A DNA stretch of 64,000 bases. Source: Escherichia coli (GTDB lineage: Bacteria > Pseudomonadota > Gammaproteobacteria > Enterobacterales > Enterobacteriaceae). This document shows positions 1-62,046 of this stretch, piece by piece. The translations under genes and the position numbers were made by a program. Position 1 is the stretch's first letter; the number at the start of each line of letters is the position of its first letter. Location of the stretch: assembly GCF_045037415.1 (NCBI RefSeq), contig NZ_CP173438.1. One strand, written 5' to 3'. The notes below the pieces were generated by a model. It ran no database searches, was not told the DNA's origin, and saw only the letters and a list, made by a program, of their open reading frames with translations.

Positions 1-661
<661 letters not shown>

Positions 662-15745: not shown

Positions 15746-15790
15746 TTGTTAATAAAAAACGGCGTTTCATAATGTGAAGCGCCGTTTGCT
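15746..15790 (+). terminator. intrinsic terminator after uxaCA
   Basis: aacggcg-N-cgccgtt inverted repeat followed by tgctttt. Confidence 0.55.
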
Positions 15791-15815: not shown

Positions 15816-16367
15816 ATGACCGCGTATTGGCTGGCCCAGGGCGTGGGTGTCATCGCCTTTCTGATTGGTATCACAACATTTTTCAATCGTGACGAACGTC
15901 GCTTCAAAAAGCAACTTTCGGTCTATAGCGCCGTTATTGGCGTACATTTTTTTCTTCTGGGCACCTATCCTGCCGGTGCCAGTGCCATCCTTAATGCCAT
16001 TCGTACATTGATTACCTTACGCACGCGCAGCTTATGGGTAATGGCGATTTTTATTGTGCTGACTGGCGGAATTGGCCTCGCGAAGTTCCATCATCCTGTT
16101 GAACTATTGCCGGTAATCGGCACGATTGTCAGTACCTGGGCGCTGTTCCGCTGTAAAGGGCTGACCATGCGCTGCGTAATGTGGTTTTCAACGTGTTGCT
16201 GGGTGATTCACAACTTCTGGGCGGGGTCGATAGGCGGCACGATGATTGAAGGCAGTTTTCTGCTGATGAATGGCCTGAATATCATTCGTTTCTGGCGTAT
16301 GCAGAGAAGGGGAATTGATCCGTTTAAAGTGGAGAAAACCCCTTCCGCCGTAGACGAAAGGGGCTAA
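15816..16367 (+). CDS. ygjV: inner-membrane protein YgjV
   Basis: 183-aa polytopic membrane ORF MTAYWLAQGVGVIAFLIGITTFFNRDERRFKK... Confidence 0.85.
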   Translation: MTAYWLAQGVGVIAFLIGITTFFNRDERRFKKQLSVYSAVIGVHFFLLGTYPAGASAILNAIRTLITLRTRSLWVMAIFIVLTGGIGLAKFHHPVELLPVIGTIVSTWALFRCKGLTMRCVMWFSTCCWVIHNFWAGSIGGTMIEGSFLLMNGLNIIRFWRMQRRGIDPFKVEKTPSAVDERG

Positions 16368-16370
16368 GTA

Positions 16371-17615
16371 TTAGTTACGCAGGGCGCTATTTGCCAGACG
16401 ATCGTCTTCCGCCTGGCAAGCTGCCGCAGTGAACAGCACGTCAGTTGACGAGTTCAGCGCGGTTTCACAGGAGTCCTGCAATACGCCGATAATAAAGCCG
16501 ACAGCAACCACCTGCATGGCGATATCGTTCGAAATACCGAACATATTACAGGCCAGTGGGATCAGCAACAGAGATCCCCCCGCCACGCCGGATGCGCCAC
16601 AGGCACACAGAGAAGCCACTACGCTCAACAGCAGCGCTGTGGGCAGATCAACCGGAATACCCAGCGTATTAACTGCAGCCAGCGTCAACACGGTAATGGT
16701 GATTGCTGCGCCCGCCATATTGATGGTGGCTCCCAGCGGAATAGAAACGGAATAGGTATCGCGATCCAGATTCAGCTTTTCACACAGCGCCATATTCACC
16801 GGAATGTTCGCCGCAGAGCTGCGGGTGAAGAAGGCATACACGCCGCTTTCGCGCAGGCACAGCAGCACCAGCGGGAACGGGTTACGACGAATTTTCCACC
16901 ACACCAGCAAGGGGTTAACCACCAGCGCCACCAGTAACATACAGCCAACCAACACGACCAGCAGTTGCGCGTAGCCCCACAGCGTGGAGAAACCGGTGGT
17001 TGCCAGGGTAGAAGAAACCAGACCAAAAATACCGATCGGTGCGAAGCGAATCACCAGTTTCACCATAAAGGTGACGGCATTCGACATATCGTTGACCAGG
17101 TTTTTGGTGGTTTCGTTACCGTGACGCAGTGCGAAACCGAGGCCAATTGCCCACACCAGGATCCCGATGTAGTTACCTTTCAGCAGCGCATCAATGGGGT
17201 TGGAAACCATGCTCATAACCAGCCCGCGCATCACTTCTACAATGCCTGACGGCGGCGAAATATCACCCGCGCTACTGGACAAGTGCAGGGTAGAAGGGAA
17301 GGCAAAACTGAAGATTACTGCGGCCAGAGCAGCAGAGAAGGTGCCCAGCAGATAGAGGAACAAAATAGGGCGGATATTGGTTTTCTGCCCGTGCTGGTGG
17401 TTAGCAATAGATGCCATTACCAGCATCAACACCAGGATGGGGGCAACGGCTTTCAGTGCGCCGACGAACAAAGTACCTAACAGACCAACAGCTTCCGCCG
17501 CGGGTTTTGAGATCCATGCCAGAAGAATCCCCAGTATAAGGCCGACCAGGATTTGTTTTACCAGGCTGCCATGAGTCAGACGCCGGAATAGCCCCGGTGA
17601 ATGTTGCGTAGTCAT
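16371..17615 (-). CDS. sstT: Na+/serine-threonine symporter SstT
   Basis: 414-aa [37 protein letters not shown]...; convergent with ygjV, 3-bp gap. Confidence 0.92.
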
Positions 17616-47749: not shown

Positions 47750-49213
47750 TTAAAGCAACACCACGGGCATCCACAGTAAGCCGGTAATCACCAGCAATAC
47801 GAGGAATATCAGCCCAAAAATCGCCCCCAGTCGCCAGTAATCCGCCGTTGGCAGATAACCACTGCCGTAGTAAATCGGACTGGGTCCGGTGGCGTATGGT
47901 GTAAGAATGCTCCCCAGACCAATTGCCGCACCAACCATCAGGCAGAACACCGGCAGCGGGATTTCCGGCATCGCCAGCGCGGCGGCAATCATCATCGGTG
48001 CGAGAGCGGAGGTATACGCTGTGGCGCTGGCAAAAAAGTAGCGCAGCAGATAAAAGACCACAATCAACGCCACCATCACTATCGTTGGCGAATAACCGCT
48101 TAAGCTGCCTGCTAACAGTTTGCCAAACCAGCTAATAAAACCGGTGTTGTTGAGTCCGGTAGCGAGGGTGATAAGCGAGGCCAGCCAGAAGAAAACGTTC
48201 CACGCCGCTTTATTACTGACAATGTCGTCCCAACTGATAATGCGCAGAAGCAGCATCAGCGCCACCACGCTGTAACCGACCATCGCGGCATCGATATAAT
48301 CACCGCCAAAAATCCACAACACCAGTGCGCCTACCATCAGCCCCAGCATCCGTTTTTCACGCGAACAGAGCGGGCCCATTGCCTGCAGTTCCGTCTCTGC
48401 CCAGCGCGGCACCTGATCGCCAGACTTCAGTACCGGCGGGTACAGCACGTAAGCCAGCCAGGGAACCAGCAAAACCAGTAAAATGCTGAGCGGCAACATC
48501 CCGAGGAACCAGTCGCCCCAGCTTAGCATGGCGTGAGATGCGCTTTTCATCAGTCCAATTAACAGCAAATTTGGAGCCATCGCCGTCAGGAAAATGGCGC
48601 TGGTCACGCAGTCGGCAACAATCCCCATCCACATGATGTACGAGCCAATGCTGCGCGAACTGCTGTCGTTTGGTTGTGATTGATAGAGCGGTGGCAGGTT
48701 ACGGATGATGGGATAGATAATCCCCGCACCACGCGCCGAGTTGGACGGTGTTACAGGCGCGAGTATCAGCTCGGAGAACATCACTGCATAGCCGAGAAAC
48801 AGCGTGCGATGCCCCATTTTTTTCACCAGAATCAGCGCGATGCGACGTCCAAGCCCGGTTTTTTCATAGCCCGTACCAAACATAAAGGCGGCGAAAATAA
48901 GCCAGATAACTGAATTAGAAAAACCAGAAACCGCCCAGGAGAGGGATTTGGCGGTGAACTTAAAACCTGGCTGGGCGAGCTGCTCCGGGCTAAACAGCAG
49001 CCACGGCGAAAGAATGGCGATGATGGATATACCCACCATCGCCACCACGGCACCCGGCACGGGTTCGAGGATCAGTCCAACGATCACGCCAGTAAAAACG
49101 GCAAAGTAGAGCCAGGTATGACTCTCCAGCCCTGCGGGAAGCGGAAGTAGAGCAATAATGGCGATGACCGCCAGCGGCGCAAGGTATCGCCACCATTCAG
49201 TGGAAGGTTTCAT
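47750..49213 (-). CDS. ttdT: L-tartrate/succinate antiporter TtdT (YgjE, DASS family)
   Basis: 487-aa ORF MKPSTEWWRYLAPLAVIAIIALLPLPAGLESHTW... Confidence 0.9.
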   Translation of the reverse strand: MKPSTEWWRYLAPLAVIAIIALLPLPAGLESHTWLYFAVFTGVIVGLILEPVPGAVVAMVGISIIAILSPWLLFSPEQLAQPGFKFTAKSLSWAVSGFSNSVIWLIFAAFMFGTGYEKTGLGRRIALILVKKMGHRTLFLGYAVMFSELILAPVTPSNSARGAGIIYPIIRNLPPLYQSQPNDSSSRSIGSYIMWMGIVADCVTSAIFLTAMAPNLLLIGLMKSASHAMLSWGDWFLGMLPLSILLVLLVPWLAYVLYPPVLKSGDQVPRWAETELQAMGPLCSREKRMLGLMVGALVLWIFGGDYIDAAMVGYSVVALMLLLRIISWDDIVSNKAAWNVFFWLASLITLATGLNNTGFISWFGKLLAGSLSGYSPTIVMVALIVVFYLLRYFFASATAYTSALAPMMIAAALAMPEIPLPVFCLMVGAAIGLGSILTPYATGPSPIYYGSGYLPTADYWRLGAIFGLIFLVLLVITGLLWMPVVLL

Positions 49214-49260
49214 CGTGTTATGCCTGCGAAAAAGGAGAGGGGCGAGCCTCTCCGTGAGGG

Positions 49261-49866
49261 TTATTTGATGTAGTGGACGTGCTCGCAGATCTCTTCCACG
49301 ATGGGATCGCGGCGTTCGGCGAACAGCTTTTTATTTTCGGCTATCAGGTTGTTGCCGTGGGTATCTATAGAGACAATCAGCGGGCCAAACTCTTTGACCC
49401 GGCAGACCCACAGCGACTCTGGCATCCCGAGTTCTGTCCAGTGCACTTCTTCAATCTCTTCCACTTGAGTTGCCGCCAGTACCGCACAGCCAGCCGGGAA
49501 AATCACATGCAGCGCCTTGAATTTCTGGCAGCCTTCTTCGGTCAGCGGCCCCATTCCGCCTTTGCCGACCACCAGTTTCACGCCGGTCTGCTCGATAAAT
49601 TCACGTTCAAAACTTTCCATACGCATACTGGTTGTCGGGCCGACGGATACCATCTCCCATTTGTCGCCGTTTTTGCGCACGATGGGGCCAGCGTGGAAAA
49701 TCGCTTTGCCGTTGAGATCGTAAGGGATCGGACGTTTCAGTTCGATCAAGCGACGGTGACAAACGTCACGGCAGGTCACCAGCGTACCGGTCAGGTAGAT
49801 CACATCGCCGACGCGAATATCTTGCAGATCTTCAGCTTTGATCGGGGTTGTCAGGATCTTTTTCAT
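49261..49866 (-). CDS. ttdB: L(+)-tartrate dehydratase beta subunit TtdB
   Basis: 201-aa [42 protein letters not shown]... Confidence 0.93.
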
Positions 49867-50774
49867 AACGCGCTCCGGGTGTGAGACAGATTTTCAAAGG
49901 TGAGATCGGCATGAACCAGCAGTGTGCCGCGACGATGCGCCCAGCAGCCGGTAGAAACAGCAACGCCGATGGTTGACGGATGGCGAGCGGCAGATTCGAT
50001 ATGCACGCCCATCACTGAACTGTTGCCAGTCAGCCCTTGTGGACCAATCCCCAAACGGTTGAGTCCTTCTTCCAGGCGTAGCTCCAGCTCTGCCGCTTTC
50101 GGATTGGGGTGGCGGCTGCCAATCGGGCGCAAAATGGCTTTTCGCGAGAGCACTGCGGCGGTTTCCACCGAGGTAGCGATGCCAACGCCCACCAGTACCG
50201 GCGGACAGGCGTTTACGGCGAGGGTGGAGATATTTTCGAAGACGAATTTCACTACGCCTTCGTAGCCTTCTGACGGCATTAACACTTTCGATCGGCCAGG
50301 TAGCGTGCAGCCGCCGCCTGCCATGTAAACTTCGATTTCCGCATCGTCACCGTCGGGGACGATATCCCAGGTGACCCACGGTACGCCGCTGCCGGTATTT
50401 TTGCCGGTGTTTACTTCGTCAAAAATTTCTACCGCATTGTGACGCAGTGGCGCTTTGACGGTTGCCTCTTCCACGGCTTGTTTGAGTATGCTTTGCAGCT
50501 CGCCAAGCAGTGGGAAACGGGAACCGACCTTAACAAAAAACATGATTTCGCCGGTGTCCTGACAGGCAGGACGATTCAGGTCGATCGCTTTTTGCATGTT
50601 ATCGAACATCGTGTGGTAGATGATTTTTCCCATCGACGATGTTTCGGCATCCTTTAGCTGTTTTAGTTTATCCACCACGTCATCAGGCATTCGGGTAGAA
50701 ATCATGGCGGTAAAGTTAGCGACAATCTCCGTCAACTTATTCACTGCCTGTTGCTTATTACTTTCGCTCATCAT
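49863..50774 (-). CDS. ttdA: L(+)-tartrate dehydratase alpha subunit TtdA
   Basis: 303-aa [42 protein letters not shown]...; 4-bp overlap with ttdB. Confidence 0.93.
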
Positions 50775-50980
50775 GGCAACTCCAGTTTATGTATTTGTCT
50801 GGAAAAATTCACCGCCACAAACTACCACTAAAAATGTGGTTTTATATTTTTTGCCACCGTGAATATGTAATTAACAGTTCGTGAATCAACGCGAAAATAA
50901 GAACGAATATTGCGCCAGAGCAGGGAATGGTAATGTTTTGCGAAATACACTGCGTTTATCAAAACTGCGGATATTTAACA

Positions 50981-51913
50981 ATGCTAAATAGCTGGCCTTT
51001 AGCCAAAGACTTGCAGGTACTGGTGGAAATCGTCCATAGCGGGAGTTTTAGTGCTGCAGCGGCGACGCTTGGGCAAACGCCTGCATTTGTCACCAAGCGG
51101 ATCCAAATCCTTGAAAATACGCTGGCAACAACGCTGCTGAACCGCTCCGCTCGCGGCGTGGCGCTGACTGAAAGTGGCCAACGTTGTTACGAACATGCGC
51201 TGGAAATCCTCACCCAATATCAGCGACTGGTCGATGACGTCACGCAAATCAAAACGCGCCCGGAGGGGATGATCCGCATTGGTTGCAGTTTTGGTTTTGG
51301 GCGCAGCCATATTGCGCCAGCTATTACCGAACTGATGCGCAATTATCCTGAGTTACAGGTGCATTTTGAATTGTTCGATCGACAAATTGATTTAGTGCAG
51401 GATAATATTGATCTGGATATTCGTATTAATGACGCAATTCCTGATTATTATATTGCGCATCTTTTGACAAAAAATAAAAGAATATTATGCGCAGCACCTG
51501 AGTATCTGCAAAAATATCCGCAGCCACAATCCTTACAGGAATTAAGTCGTCATGACTGCCTGGTGACCAAAGAGCGCGATATGACCCACGGAATATGGGA
51601 GTTGGGGAACGGTCAGGAGAAAAAATCGGTGAAGGTAAGCGGACATCTTTCCTCCAATAGCGGCGAGATTGTGTTGCAATGGGCGCTGGAGGGCAAAGGG
51701 ATTATGCTGCGTTCCGAGTGGGATGTGTTGCCGTTTCTGGAGAGTGGCAAACTGGTGCGAGTATTGCCGGAGTATGCACAAAGCGCCAATATCTGGGCTG
51801 TTTACCGGGAGCCGCTCTATCGCAGCATGAAATTACGTGTCTGTGTGGAATTTCTGGCGGCATGGTGCCAGCAACGGCTGGGCAAGCCCGACGAAGGCTA
51901 TCAGGTCATGTAG
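50981..51913 (+). CDS. ttdR: LysR-family activator of ttdABT, TtdR (YgiP)
   Basis: ..[45 protein letters not shown]..; start at MLNSW gives 310 aa; divergent from ttdA. Confidence 0.88.
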
Positions 51914-51925
51914 ATCCACCAGAAA

Positions 51926-52543
51926 TCACTCGGGATCCTTTTCGCGCTTTCTTTTGAATTTCGTCCAGATTTTTGTCTCCTGGCGACGCCACAGACGCTG
52001 GATGTTGTCATGATGACGCAGCAGGATCAGGCAAGAGAGCATCGAAACCGGGAAGGTGAATTGTGGCTTAAACCACCAGACATAAAACGGAGCAATCAGT
52101 GCACTGACAATCGCTCCCAGCGACGAGTAACCACTCAATAGCACGGTCAGTAACCAGGTTCCCGCCATTACTCCAGTGAGATCCCAGCCAATTGGTGCGA
52201 TGGCACCAAAAGCGGTAGCAACGCCTTTTCCTCCTTTAAAACCGAAGAAAACGGGCCAGATGTGTCCAAGACAGGCGGCGATGGCAATTAAGCCTAGCCA
52301 GAAGGGGCTGACACCTAATTCATACGCGCCCCAGACGGGCAACATTCCTTTCAGAACGTCGAAAATCAGTACTGCTACGGCTGCTCCCTTGCCACCGATA
52401 CGTAACACATTGGTTGCGCCTGGATTGCCGGAGCCGCTGGTTCGCGGATCGGGTAACCCACACAAGCGGCAAACCAGAATGGCACTGGAAATGGAGCCGC
52501 AGAGGTACGCGATGAGGATCATTCCAGGCGCGATTGCACTCAT
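51926..52543 (-). CDS. plsY: glycerol-3-phosphate acyltransferase PlsY (YgiH)
   Basis: 205-aa [55 protein letters not shown]... Confidence 0.93.
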
Positions 52544-61817: not shown

Positions 61818-61896
61818 CTGGAAAGCGGTTCACAGATCTCGCTTCGTAGCAGGCAGGTCTATTGACGCTGTTGTTTTTTCAACCTAAAGTAAAGGA

Positions 61897-62046
61897 ACAA
61901 GGGTAAGGGAGGATTTCTCCCCCCTCTGATGAGTTGTTAGTAAGTCGGGAAACTTAACAGTAACAACACAACCAGTATGATGACGAACTTCATCATAACC
62001 CTTTCCTTCTATAAGGCCCCTTCCTCGGGAGGGGCTTTCCCGTTTC
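61897..62046 (+). ncRNA. Sib antisense sRNA (type I antitoxin of Ibs), SibD/SibE-type; ends approximate
   Basis: Plus-strand promoter TTGACG(61862-61867)-N17-TAAAGT(61885-61890); transcript would fully cover the minus-strand ibs ORF; GC-rich hairpin ggcccc..ggggc plus U-rich tail at about 62015-62046. Confidence 0.6.
61937..61996 (-). CDS. Ibs type I toxin (19-aa hydrophobic peptide), IbsD/IbsE-type; not in ORF track
   Basis: Minus-strand atgatgaagttcgtcatcatactggttgtgttgttactgttaagtttcccgacttactaa = MMKFVIILVVLLLLSFPTY*, the Ibs family pattern (MM start, hydrophobic core, ..SFPxY end). Confidence 0.75.
   Translation of the reverse strand: MMKFVIILVVLLLLSFPTY

What the first reader, a model, noticed from the sequence alone, without database searches (positions are those of the whole stretch)
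16365..16373. Convergent gene pairs with almost no spacer (ygjV/sstT 3 bp; ttdR/plsY 12 bp)
The stop codons of ygjV and sstT are 3 bp apart, and those of ttdR and plsY (51914-51925) are 12 bp apart, with no room for terminators on either strand. Transcripts must read into the opposite gene, giving scope for antisense interference between a transporter pair and between the tartrate regulator and an essential lipid-synthesis gene.
Basis: seen in the sequence. Interest (0 to 1): 0.2.

Follow-up and report, generated by a model that had tools for sequence, protein, structure and literature searches.

The report
Tight convergent gene ends in E. coli
Two pairs of E. coli genes that face each other do end only 3 and 12 bases apart, but this is common in E. 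coli and already catalogued, and the stop signals for transcription have not vanished: they sit inside the neighbouring gene.

Summary
The ygjV and sstT stop codons are 3 bp apart (16368-16370). The ttdR and plsY stop codons are 12 bp apart (51914-51925). Both junctions occur in essentially all complete E. coli genomes.

It is not unusual. In 200 kb sampled from K-12, 8 of 28 convergent gene pairs have 12 bp or less, or overlap.

"No room for terminators" is wrong as a mechanism. Directly after the sstT stop lies an 11-13 bp hairpin followed by UUUUCUCC, written over the last codons of ygjV. Enterobacteriaceae conserve it with compensatory changes, and it is stable only on the sstT strand. Relatives with 44-117 bp spacers carry an ordinary terminator at that place, so the ygjV reading frame has grown over it.

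plsY has no intrinsic terminator. The ttd gene cluster lies between plsY and tsaD in E. coli, where most relatives examined have plsY directly facing tsaD. Published bicyclomycin data place Rho-dependent termination about 240 nt into ttdR (plsY transcript) and about 210 nt into ygjV (sstT transcript).

A 2025 catalogue already lists both pairs among E. coli overlapping-transcript pairs ("excludons"). Regulatory interference is untested. plsY is not essential in E. coli. Ordinary; low interest.

The parts
15816..16367 (+). ygjV coding sequence (183 aa). The Pfam Imp-YgjV domain covers residues 5-163; the last 20 residues are a non-domain tail.
16368..16370 (.). 3-bp spacer (GTA) between the ygjV and sstT stop codons. 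K-12 has ACAA (4 bp) and another E. coli has ACA.
16371..17615 (-). sstT coding sequence (414 aa, serine/threonine:Na+ symporter, Pfam SDF family).
16339..16363 (-). sstT 3' hairpin CCCCUUUCGUCUACGGCGGAAGGGG: 11-bp stem, 3-nt loop, -16.7 kcal/mol (13 bp if the flanking A-U and G-U pairs are counted). It is written over the last 9 codons of ygjV (TPSAVDERG). On the ygjV strand the same bases fold to only -9.2 kcal/mol.
   Evidence: conservation and covariation
16331..16338 (-). U-rich tract UUUUCUCC directly after the hairpin. On the other strand these bases are Glu/Lys codons of the YgjV tail.
16161..16318 (-). C-rich, G-poor stretch of the sstT read-through RNA (antisense to ygjV). C/G reaches 2.40 at +53..130, above the 99th percentile of the window. 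The published Rho termination coordinate, K-12 3241399 (+), maps to about window 16161.
   Evidence: PMC7815308 supplementary file 2
15757..15787 (.). Hairpin with a T run on both strands between uxaA and ygjV. It ends uxaCA transcripts on the + strand and is a likely backstop for sstT read-through on the - strand.
50981..51913 (+). ttdR coding sequence (310 aa, LysR-type tartrate regulator).
51914..51925 (.). 12-bp spacer ATCCACCAGAAA between the ttdR and plsY stop codons.
51926..52543 (-). plsY coding sequence (205 aa). The Pfam domain covers residues 11-184; the C-terminal tail is Lys/Arg-rich.
51666..51769 (-). C-rich, G-poor stretch of the plsY read-through RNA (antisense to ttdR). C/G is 2.3-2.8 at +157..260, above the 99th percentile. 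The published Rho termination coordinate, K-12 3205553 (+), maps to about window 51684.
   Evidence: PMC7815308 supplementary file 2
51850..51926 (-). Long-range stem AUUUCUGGUGG/CCGCCAGAAAU enclosing about 55 nt on the plsY transcript (-29.7 kcal/mol; the 99-nt region has z = -2.5). No U tract follows it. It may be a structure that protects the 3' end; this was not tested.
51913..51955 (+). After the ttdR stop: a weak hairpin GAUCC...GGAUC (-6.3 kcal/mol, 51913-51937), then the U-rich run CUUUUCGCGCUUUCUUUU (antisense of the Lys/Arg codons of PlsY). At best a marginal intrinsic terminator.

Best explanation
These are two ordinary, compact convergent gene ends. The signals that end transcription lie inside the partner's reading frame instead of between the genes.

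At sstT/ygjV, the segment that carries the sstT 3' hairpin and U-rich tract is still present. It spans about 48-70 nt between the last conserved YgjV motif (GIDPF) and the sstT stop in Escherichia and its close relatives. In the Citrobacter/Klebsiella group the ygjV frame stays open through the hairpin's 3' arm. In Escherichia it stays open through the whole hairpin, which leaves 3-4 bp between the stops. The hairpin serves the sstT transcript as an intrinsic terminator and/or as the stable 3' end left after trimming. Polymerases that pass it meet a C-rich, untranslated stretch and are released by Rho about 200 nt into ygjV. A hairpin upstream of ygjV acts as a backstop.

At plsY/ttdR, the ttdR-ttdABT cluster lies between plsY and tsaD, where most relatives examined have plsY directly facing tsaD. 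I infer that an insertion replaced the terminator-bearing spacer that plsY shares with tsaD in those relatives. plsY transcripts therefore run about 240 nt into ttdR antisense and are ended by Rho.

The weakly expressed partners, ygjV and ttdR, have no convincing terminator. I infer that their transcripts end by Rho action or collision inside sstT and plsY.

Shown here or in the cited data: the anatomy, the conservation and covariation of the hairpin, the gene orders, and the BCM sensitivity. Inferred: that the hairpin actually terminates transcription in vivo, the fate of ygjV and ttdR transcripts, and that any interference is incidental rather than regulatory.
For: Hairpin anatomy: 11-13 bp, -16.7 kcal/mol, followed by UUUUCUCC, starting 8 nt after the sstT stop. 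The 84-nt region folds with z = -3.1.

My stringent hairpin-plus-U scan of both strands of the window gave 23 hits. Eleven lie within 70 nt downstream of a same-strand stop, a zone that makes up 3.3% of positions. Of the six hits that lie inside a gene, the sstT hit is the only one in that zone; the other five are in gene bodies.

Each of 19 Enterobacteriaceae relatives has a hairpin of about -20 kcal/mol at the same place, with different stem sequences. On the covariance-model alignment, 94.7% of cells pair, against 52-68% when partners are slid. Six of 10 pairs change on both sides, and 0 of 500 shuffles reach the covariation score.

Strand specificity: G-U pairs are frequent, and the fold is -16.7 kcal/mol on the sstT strand against -9.2 on the ygjV strand.

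Outgroups (Yersinia, Edwardsiella, Pectobacterium, Shimwellia) have 44-82 bp spacers that hold a canonical hairpin plus U run. The GIDPF-to-sstT-stop distance stays at 48-69 nt while the annotated spacer runs from -4 to 43 bp.

Between K-12 and the window, substitutions cluster at the stops and spacer, and none falls in the hairpin.

Rho: BCM-sensitive regions at K-12 3241399(+), antisense to ygjV (Rho score 3.2, p = 7e-7), and at 3205553(+), antisense to ttdR (Rho score 8.4, p = 2e-29) (PMC7815308 supplementary file 2). C/G peaks above the 99th percentile lie just upstream of both coordinates.

Island: relatives have plsY facing tsaD with 22-141 bp between them, and one holds a clean terminator (AAGGCCGGAUAAACGUAUCCGGCCUUUGUAUUU). 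Klebsiella has urease genes at that site. ttdR faces plsY with 86 bp (REP-like palindromes) in Salmonella bongori and with 23 bp in Entomohabitans. The ttd cluster lies elsewhere in Trabulsiella and Leminorella.
Against: The curated Term-seq lists of PMC7815308 (three growth conditions) hold no 3' end at the sstT hairpin, nor any within about 400 nt of either junction. In vivo termination or processing at the hairpin is therefore not demonstrated; expression may simply be too low.

With BCM, coverage downstream of sstT recovers almost fully (124 reads downstream against 139 upstream). That suggests the hairpin alone is leaky.

The U tract is only 5 of 8 U in E. coli and 3-4 of 8 in several relatives.

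The covariation alignment was fitted to the model, which biases the counts towards the structure.

The Rho coordinates come from 800-nt comparison windows and are approximate.
Confidence: 0.7

Rival explanations
1. One reading: there are no terminators, so the overlap works as a regulatory antisense switch (an excludon). Expression of one gene would repress its convergent partner, by polymerase collision or by RNase III cutting the 3' duplex.
For: Both pairs are in the published MG1655 excludome, with overlapping transcripts in at least 50% of 58 RNA-seq sets. Read-through of about 200-250 nt into the partner is supported by the BCM data.
Against: A conserved terminator-like element exists for sstT. 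Rho limits the read-through. About a quarter of sampled convergent pairs are just as tight, and 75% of convergent operons overlap, so overlap alone does not indicate regulation. The junction spacing changes freely between species and strains (-4 to 117 bp). The searchable part of the p19 dsRNA supplement listed no dsRNA at either junction; the only sstT hit is 1.06 kb away, and the file was cut when stored. No functional link is known between the partners.
Confidence: 0.12
2. The conserved sstT hairpin is not a terminator. It is a 3'-end protection structure: Rho ends transcription further downstream, and exonucleases trim the RNA back to the hairpin.
For: BCM restores almost all downstream coverage. 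The U tract is weak in several relatives while the stem is kept. Trimming of Rho-dependent transcripts back to a stem-loop is, from my own recollection of PMC6061677, a described mechanism; the abstract start seen does not reach that conclusion.
Against: Outgroups have a full hairpin plus U run at the same position. In E. coli the hairpin is directly followed by UUUUCUCC. No 3' end at the hairpin is listed in the Term-seq tables either, so the data do not separate this reading from the terminator reading. The two roles can coexist.
Confidence: 0.25
3. Collision-driven bidirectional termination: converging polymerases pause at the shared hairpin, collide and release each other, as proposed for many E. 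coli convergent pairs.
For: A hairpin sits exactly at the sstT/ygjV boundary. The mechanism is described for E. coli convergent pairs (bioRxiv 10.1101/2022.10.23.513370).
Against: That model needs frequent transcription from both sides. ygjV and ttdR appear weakly expressed: no 3' ends or Rho regions are listed on their strand. The hairpin is strand-asymmetric (-16.7 against -9.2 kcal/mol). plsY/ttdR has no boundary hairpin. The authors state that such terminators do not depend on Rho, whereas both junctions here show BCM sensitivity.
Confidence: 0.08
4. Annotation artefact: the true gene ends lie further apart than annotated.
For: The tails lie outside the Pfam domains: YgjV residues 164-183, PlsY 185-205, TtdR 297-310.
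Against: The position of a stop codon does not depend on gene prediction. Each ORF is open up to the stated stop, and independent annotations agree.
Confidence: 0.02

Closest known systems
Convergent excludons / overlapping 3' ends of convergent operons in E. coli (ExcludonFinder 2025, PMC12288877; Conway et al. 2014, PMC4161252)
   Same: Adjacent genes on opposite strands whose transcripts overlap at their 3' ends. Both pairs are named in the published list. Short intergenic distance is the typical feature of that list.
   Different: The defining functional feature, mutually exclusive expression, has not been shown for these two pairs. The catalogue does not describe where or how the transcripts end.
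Intrinsic (Rho-independent) terminators, including those shared by convergent genes
   Same: A GC-rich hairpin directly followed by a U-rich tract, a few nucleotides after the stop codon, conserved through compensatory changes. Relatives with longer spacers have a canonical one at the same place.
   Different: Here the whole element is also coding sequence on the other strand (the last 9 codons of ygjV plus Glu/Lys codons for the U tract). The U tract is imperfect, the element is effective on one strand only, and no in vivo 3' end has been mapped to it.
Rho-dependent termination of untranslated read-through and antisense RNA (genome-wide BCM studies, e.g. Adams et al. 2021, PMC7815308)
   Same: Termination zones lie in untranslated RNA antisense to a gene, preceded by C-rich, G-poor sequence and sensitive to BCM. 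Many entries in that table are likewise 'antisense' to a convergent neighbour.
   Different: Nothing of note. These are two ordinary entries in that table.
Overlapping bidirectional terminators driven by polymerase collision (Ju et al. 2019, cited within bioRxiv 10.1101/2022.10.23.513370)
   Same: A hairpin at the boundary of a convergent pair.
   Different: Those terminators are described as Rho-independent and as working in both directions. Here the structure is strand-asymmetric and both junctions are Rho-sensitive.

Membership tests
Convergent excludon | Neighbouring genes on opposite strands, tail to tail | tested here: met
Convergent excludon | Transcripts of the two genes overlap (strand-specific RNA data) | not testable with these tools
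   No RNA data can be analysed here. The literature lists both pairs in at least 50% of 58 transcriptomes (PMC12288877 Table 1). BCM-sensitive read-through lies antisense to ygjV and ttdR (PMC7815308).
Convergent excludon | Expression of one gene lowers expression of the other (mutually exclusive expression) | not testable with these tools
   I found no published test for these pairs. It needs promoter perturbation or single-cell expression data.
Intrinsic terminator (sstT 3' element, 16331-16363, - strand) | Stable GC-rich hairpin shortly after the stop codon | tested here: met
   11-13 bp, -16.7 kcal/mol, starts 8 nt after the stop; z = -3.1
Intrinsic terminator (sstT 3' element, 16331-16363, - strand) | U-rich tract directly 3' of the stem | tested here: met
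   UUUUCUCC, 5 of 8 U. Weaker in several relatives, 3-4 of 8.
Intrinsic terminator (sstT 3' element, 16331-16363, - strand) | Structure conserved by compensatory substitutions | tested here: met
   94.7% of cells paired, 6 of 10 pairs changed on both sides, 0 of 500 shuffles reach the score, slid controls 52-68%. Caveat: the alignment was fitted to the model.
Intrinsic terminator (sstT 3' element, 16331-16363, - strand) | Transcript 3' ends map to the U tract; termination without Rho | tested here: inconclusive
   No 3' end is listed there in the curated Term-seq tables. BCM restores most downstream coverage. Expression may be too low; no in vitro data exist.
Rho-dependent terminator (downstream of plsY and of sstT) | C-rich, G-poor, untranslated RNA upstream of the termination zone | tested here: met
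   C/G is 2.3-2.8 (plsY, +157..260) and 2.4 (sstT, +53..130), against a window 99th percentile of 2.21
Rho-dependent terminator (downstream of plsY and of sstT) | Read-through rises when Rho is inhibited | not testable with these tools
   Literature: Rho scores 8.4 (p = 2e-29) and 3.2 (p = 7e-7) in PMC7815308 supplementary file 2
Bidirectional terminator of a convergent pair | One palindromic hairpin flanked by an A tract and a U tract, effective on both strands | tested here: not met
   On the ygjV strand the fold is -9.2 kcal/mol and the tail CUAAGUAUUAG is not a U tract. plsY/ttdR has no boundary hairpin stronger than -6.3 kcal/mol.
Overlapping genes | Coding sequences share nucleotides | tested here: not met
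   The spacers are +3 and +12 bp. Real overlaps do occur at other E. coli convergent pairs, e.g. cho/ves -41 and bioP/metR -113.

The most novel reading that the evidence does not exclude
The sstT terminator and the YgjV C-terminal tail are one dual-use sequence, and its evolution can be followed step by step. First there is an intergenic terminator. Then the ygjV frame reaches the apex of the hairpin. Then, in Escherichia, it reads through the whole hairpin. On this reading, stop-codon drift routinely turns terminators into protein tails. The resulting 200-nt-plus 3' duplexes at sstT/ygjV and plsY/ttdR would make real reciprocal switches, for example induction of tartrate growth lowering plsY, or serine/threonine uptake lowering ygjV.
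Probability: 0.1. Interest if true: 0.35.

Novelty: already known. Interest (0 to 1): 0.12.

Why it matters
It matters little for biology at large. The layout is common, both pairs are already in a published catalogue of overlapping convergent transcripts, and their Rho-dependent read-through is in published tables.

The useful lesson is methodological. A very short annotated spacer between convergent genes does not mean the terminator is missing. It can be overprinted by the neighbour's non-conserved C-terminal tail, as for sstT/ygjV, or replaced by Rho-dependent termination after an island insertion, as for plsY/ttdR. Terminator finders and genome scans that look only in intergenic DNA will miss such elements.

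If someone wished to test excludon-type regulation, these two pairs are clean and universally conserved E. coli cases. Nothing here suggests they are special.

Tried and rejected
The built-in terminator scan found nothing at either junction. It missed the sstT hairpin, apparently because it extends the stem into the U tract. My own scans recovered it.

A first, lenient scan of my own was too noisy to be useful, so I tightened it.

MAFFT alignments of the hairpin were out of register between species with different loop sizes. I used a covariance model to align them instead.

My first computation of ygjV stops gave false large overlaps (-62 to -261) for some Citrobacter loci, because of how the frame was extended. 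This was corrected.

I looked for mapped 3' ends in other data sets. There was no text supplement, or no mention of these genes, for PMC12288877, PMC9023263, PMC6131387, PMC6061677, PMC12207403 and PMC4161252. The SEnd-seq paper of Ju et al. 2019 is not held.

The p19 dsRNA data list one site in sstT, but it is 1.06 kb from the junction.

Rfam finds nothing at either junction.

Rejected ideas: that the tight spacing is rare, that the gene ends are mis-annotated, and that the hairpin is a bidirectional terminator.
Full report
**What the window is.** The window is E. coli chromosome, 100% identical over the tested stretch to strain SK1144 and others. It runs in the reverse orientation relative to K-12 MG1655. 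RefSeq annotation of SK1144 matches the ORFs seen here coordinate for coordinate.

**The observation.**
- ygjV (+, 15816-16367) ends with TAA at 16365-16367.
- sstT (-, 16371-17615) ends with TAA read from 16373 to 16371. Three bases (GTA) lie between the two stops.
- ttdR (+, 50981-51913) ends with TAG, and plsY (-, 51926-52543) ends with TGA. Twelve bases (ATCCACCAGAAA) lie between them.
- K-12 has 4 bp at the first junction and 12 bp at the second.
- The junctions are present in 5417 and 5425 of 5426 complete E. coli genomes.

**Is it unusual?** No.
- The window holds 12 convergent pairs, with spacers of 3, 12, 33, 41, 42, 44, 53, 60, 77, 79, 106 and 119 bp.
- In four other 50-kb stretches of K-12, 8 of 28 convergent CDS pairs have 12 bp or less, or overlap. 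Examples are cueR/ybbJ 0, tcyP/ydjO 3, ynjE/ynjF 8, xseA/yfgJ -4, tatD/rfaH -4, nudG/ynjH -35, cho/ves -41 and bioP/metR -113.
- About a quarter of the roughly 704 convergent pairs of the genome (count) are thus equally tight.

**Junction 1: a terminator-like element inside ygjV.**
- On the sstT strand, 8 nt after the stop, lies the hairpin CCCCUUUCGUCUACGGCGGAAGGGG. It has an 11-bp stem (13 bp with flanking A-U and G-U pairs) and folds at -16.7 kcal/mol. UUUUCUCC follows it directly (window 16363-16331, - strand).
- A stringent scan of both strands of the window gave 23 hairpin-plus-U hits. Eleven lie within 70 nt downstream of a same-strand stop, a zone that makes up 3.3% of positions. Of the six hits that lie inside a gene, the sstT hit is the only one in that zone. 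A chance hit in that position has a probability of about 0.003.
- On the ygjV strand the same bases fold to only -9.2 kcal/mol, because G-U pairs become C-A mismatches, and no U tract follows. The element is therefore specific to the sstT strand.
- These bases are also the last nine codons of ygjV (TPSAVDERG). The U tract is the antisense of Glu/Lys codons. This tail lies outside the Pfam Imp-YgjV domain, which covers residues 5-163 of 183.

**Conservation of the hairpin.**
- I fetched 80 sstT loci from other species.
- Every relative of the Escherichia/Citrobacter/Klebsiella/Kosakonia/Pluralibacter/Cedecea group with ygjV downstream has a hairpin of about -20 kcal/mol at the same place. The stem sequences differ: CCCCUUUCG, CCUCUCCAC, CUCCCCGUCG, GCUCUUCCGC and others.
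- On a covariance-model alignment of 20 sequences, 94.7% of cells pair, against 52-68% when partners are slid. Six of 10 pairs show changes on both sides, and 0 of 500 shuffles reach the covariation score. The caveat is that the alignment was fitted to the model.
- Between K-12 and the window, differences cluster at the stop codons and spacer, and none falls in the hairpin.

**How the 3-bp spacer arose.**
- Yersinia, Edwardsiella, Pectobacterium and Shimwellia have sstT and ygjV convergent with 44-82 bp between them. That spacer holds a canonical hairpin plus U run, and YgjV ends soon after the conserved GIDPF motif.
- In the Citrobacter/Klebsiella group the spacer is 14-19 bp. The ygjV frame reads through the 3' arm of the hairpin (tail ...PSAR) and stops at its apex.
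- In E. coli and E. albertii the frame reads through the whole hairpin.
- Tight spacing also appears in Enterobacter sp. R1 (-4) and, in the Serratia outgroup, in Serratia plymuthica (+4).
- The distance from GIDPF to the sstT stop stays at 48-69 nt in this family, while the annotated spacer varies from -4 to 43 bp.
- The terminator-bearing segment was therefore not lost. The ygjV frame absorbed it.

**Junction 2: no intrinsic terminator.**
- After the plsY stop there is only a long-range stem without a U tract (-29.7 kcal/mol). After the ttdR stop there is a -6.3 kcal/mol hairpin followed by a U-rich run.
- Relatives have plsY facing tsaD directly, with 22-141 bp between them. One holds a clean terminator. 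Klebsiella has urease genes at that site.
- In E. coli the ttdR-ttdABT cluster lies between plsY and tsaD. The same position is used in Salmonella bongori (86 bp spacer with REP-like palindromes) and in Entomohabitans (23 bp). The cluster sits elsewhere in Trabulsiella and Leminorella.
- I infer that the 12-bp junction is the edge of an inserted gene cluster, which replaced the terminator-bearing spacer that plsY has in the relatives lacking the cluster.

**Where transcripts end, from published data.**
- Adams et al. 2021 (PMC7815308, supplementary file 2) list Rho termination regions at K-12 3205553(+), antisense to ttdR. Coverage falls from 144 to 35 reads without bicyclomycin, and reads 179 then 364 with it. 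The Rho score is 8.4 and p = 2e-29.
- They also list 3241399(+), antisense to ygjV: 105 to 29 reads without the drug, 139 then 124 with it, score 3.2, p = 7e-7.
- These coordinates lie about 240 nt past the plsY stop and about 210 nt past the sstT stop (window about 51684 and 16161).
- Just upstream of each I find C-rich, G-poor windows above the 99th percentile of the window (C/G 2.3-2.8 and 2.4).
- The curated Term-seq lists hold no discrete 3' end near either junction. Termination at the sstT hairpin in vivo is therefore not shown. The near-complete recovery of downstream coverage with the drug suggests the hairpin is leaky, or acts mainly as a stable 3' end after trimming.
- A hairpin with T runs on both strands between uxaA and ygjV (15757-15787) would stop whatever escapes.

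**What is already known.**
- ExcludonFinder (PMC12288877, Table 1) names both plsY-ttdR and sstT-ygjV among 165 convergent excludons of MG1655.
- Conway et al. 2014 found that 276 of 370 convergent operons overlap, by 286 nt on average.
- The regulatory reading is untested for these pairs. The free variation of spacing between species, and the commonness of the layout, argue against it.
- plsY is not essential in E. coli. plsB is essential, and plsX and ygiH cannot both be inactivated (PMC1950310).

**Verdict.** This is a real but ordinary feature, and it is explained by known mechanisms. The one small addition from this work is that the sstT 3' hairpin is conserved while being overprinted by the YgjV tail. 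Interest is low.

Noticed in passing
window 15757-15787: Hairpin between uxaA and ygjV with a T run on both strands (-18.1 kcal/mol on the + strand, -13.6 on the - strand). It looks like a bidirectional terminator. A promoter-like site for ygjV overlaps it (15746-15773).
   Followed up: partly
window 47750-51913 (ttdT-ttdB-ttdA, ttdR): The tartrate gene cluster lies between plsY and tsaD, which face each other directly in many Enterobacterales. Klebsiella has urease genes at the same site, and the ttd cluster is elsewhere in Trabulsiella and Leminorella. The 3' flank of plsY looks like a recurrent insertion point. A hairpin at about 47716-47741 separates tsaD from ttdT.
   Followed up: partly
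window 17432-17452 (inside sstT, - strand sense); also 16464-16493 on the + strand: A 21-nt dsRNA captured by p19 after RNase III cleavage maps to the 5' part of sstT (PMC7373196, supplementary file 7). Some antisense RNA therefore covers sstT far from the junction. A sigma-70-like site (10 of 12 matches) on the + strand inside the 3' end of sstT could be its promoter.
   Followed up: no
window about 17636 (21 nt upstream of the sstT start; K-12 3239923): A very abundant Term-seq 3' end (about 21,000 reads) lies in the sstT leader, just before the start codon, and is listed with an upstream ORF (PMC7815308, supplementary file 3). sstT seems to be controlled by premature termination in its 5' UTR.
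   Followed up: no
window 16290-16450: Two E. coli haplotypes exist at junction 1: 1040 genomes are at least 99% identical to the window, and 4259 are only 90-95% identical (K-12 type). Spacer length also differs (3 against 4 bp). This is more divergence than is usual within E. coli, and it is concentrated at the stops and spacer.
   Followed up: partly
window 61862-62011: SibE antitoxin RNA (Rfam RF00113, 142 bits) opposite the ibsE toxin gene. The only other Rfam hit in the window is the tRNA at 41568-41640. The alx leader did not reach any family's threshold.
   Followed up: no
window 50927-50980: The ttdR ORF is open from an ATG at 50927 (328 aa), 54 nt upstream of the annotated start at 50981 (310 aa).
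   Followed up: no
L096:2934-3019 (Salmonella bongori): The ttdR/plsY spacer is 86 bp there and consists of REP-like palindromes (GCCGGATAAG...CTTATCCGGC). The E. coli junction lacks them entirely.
   Followed up: partly
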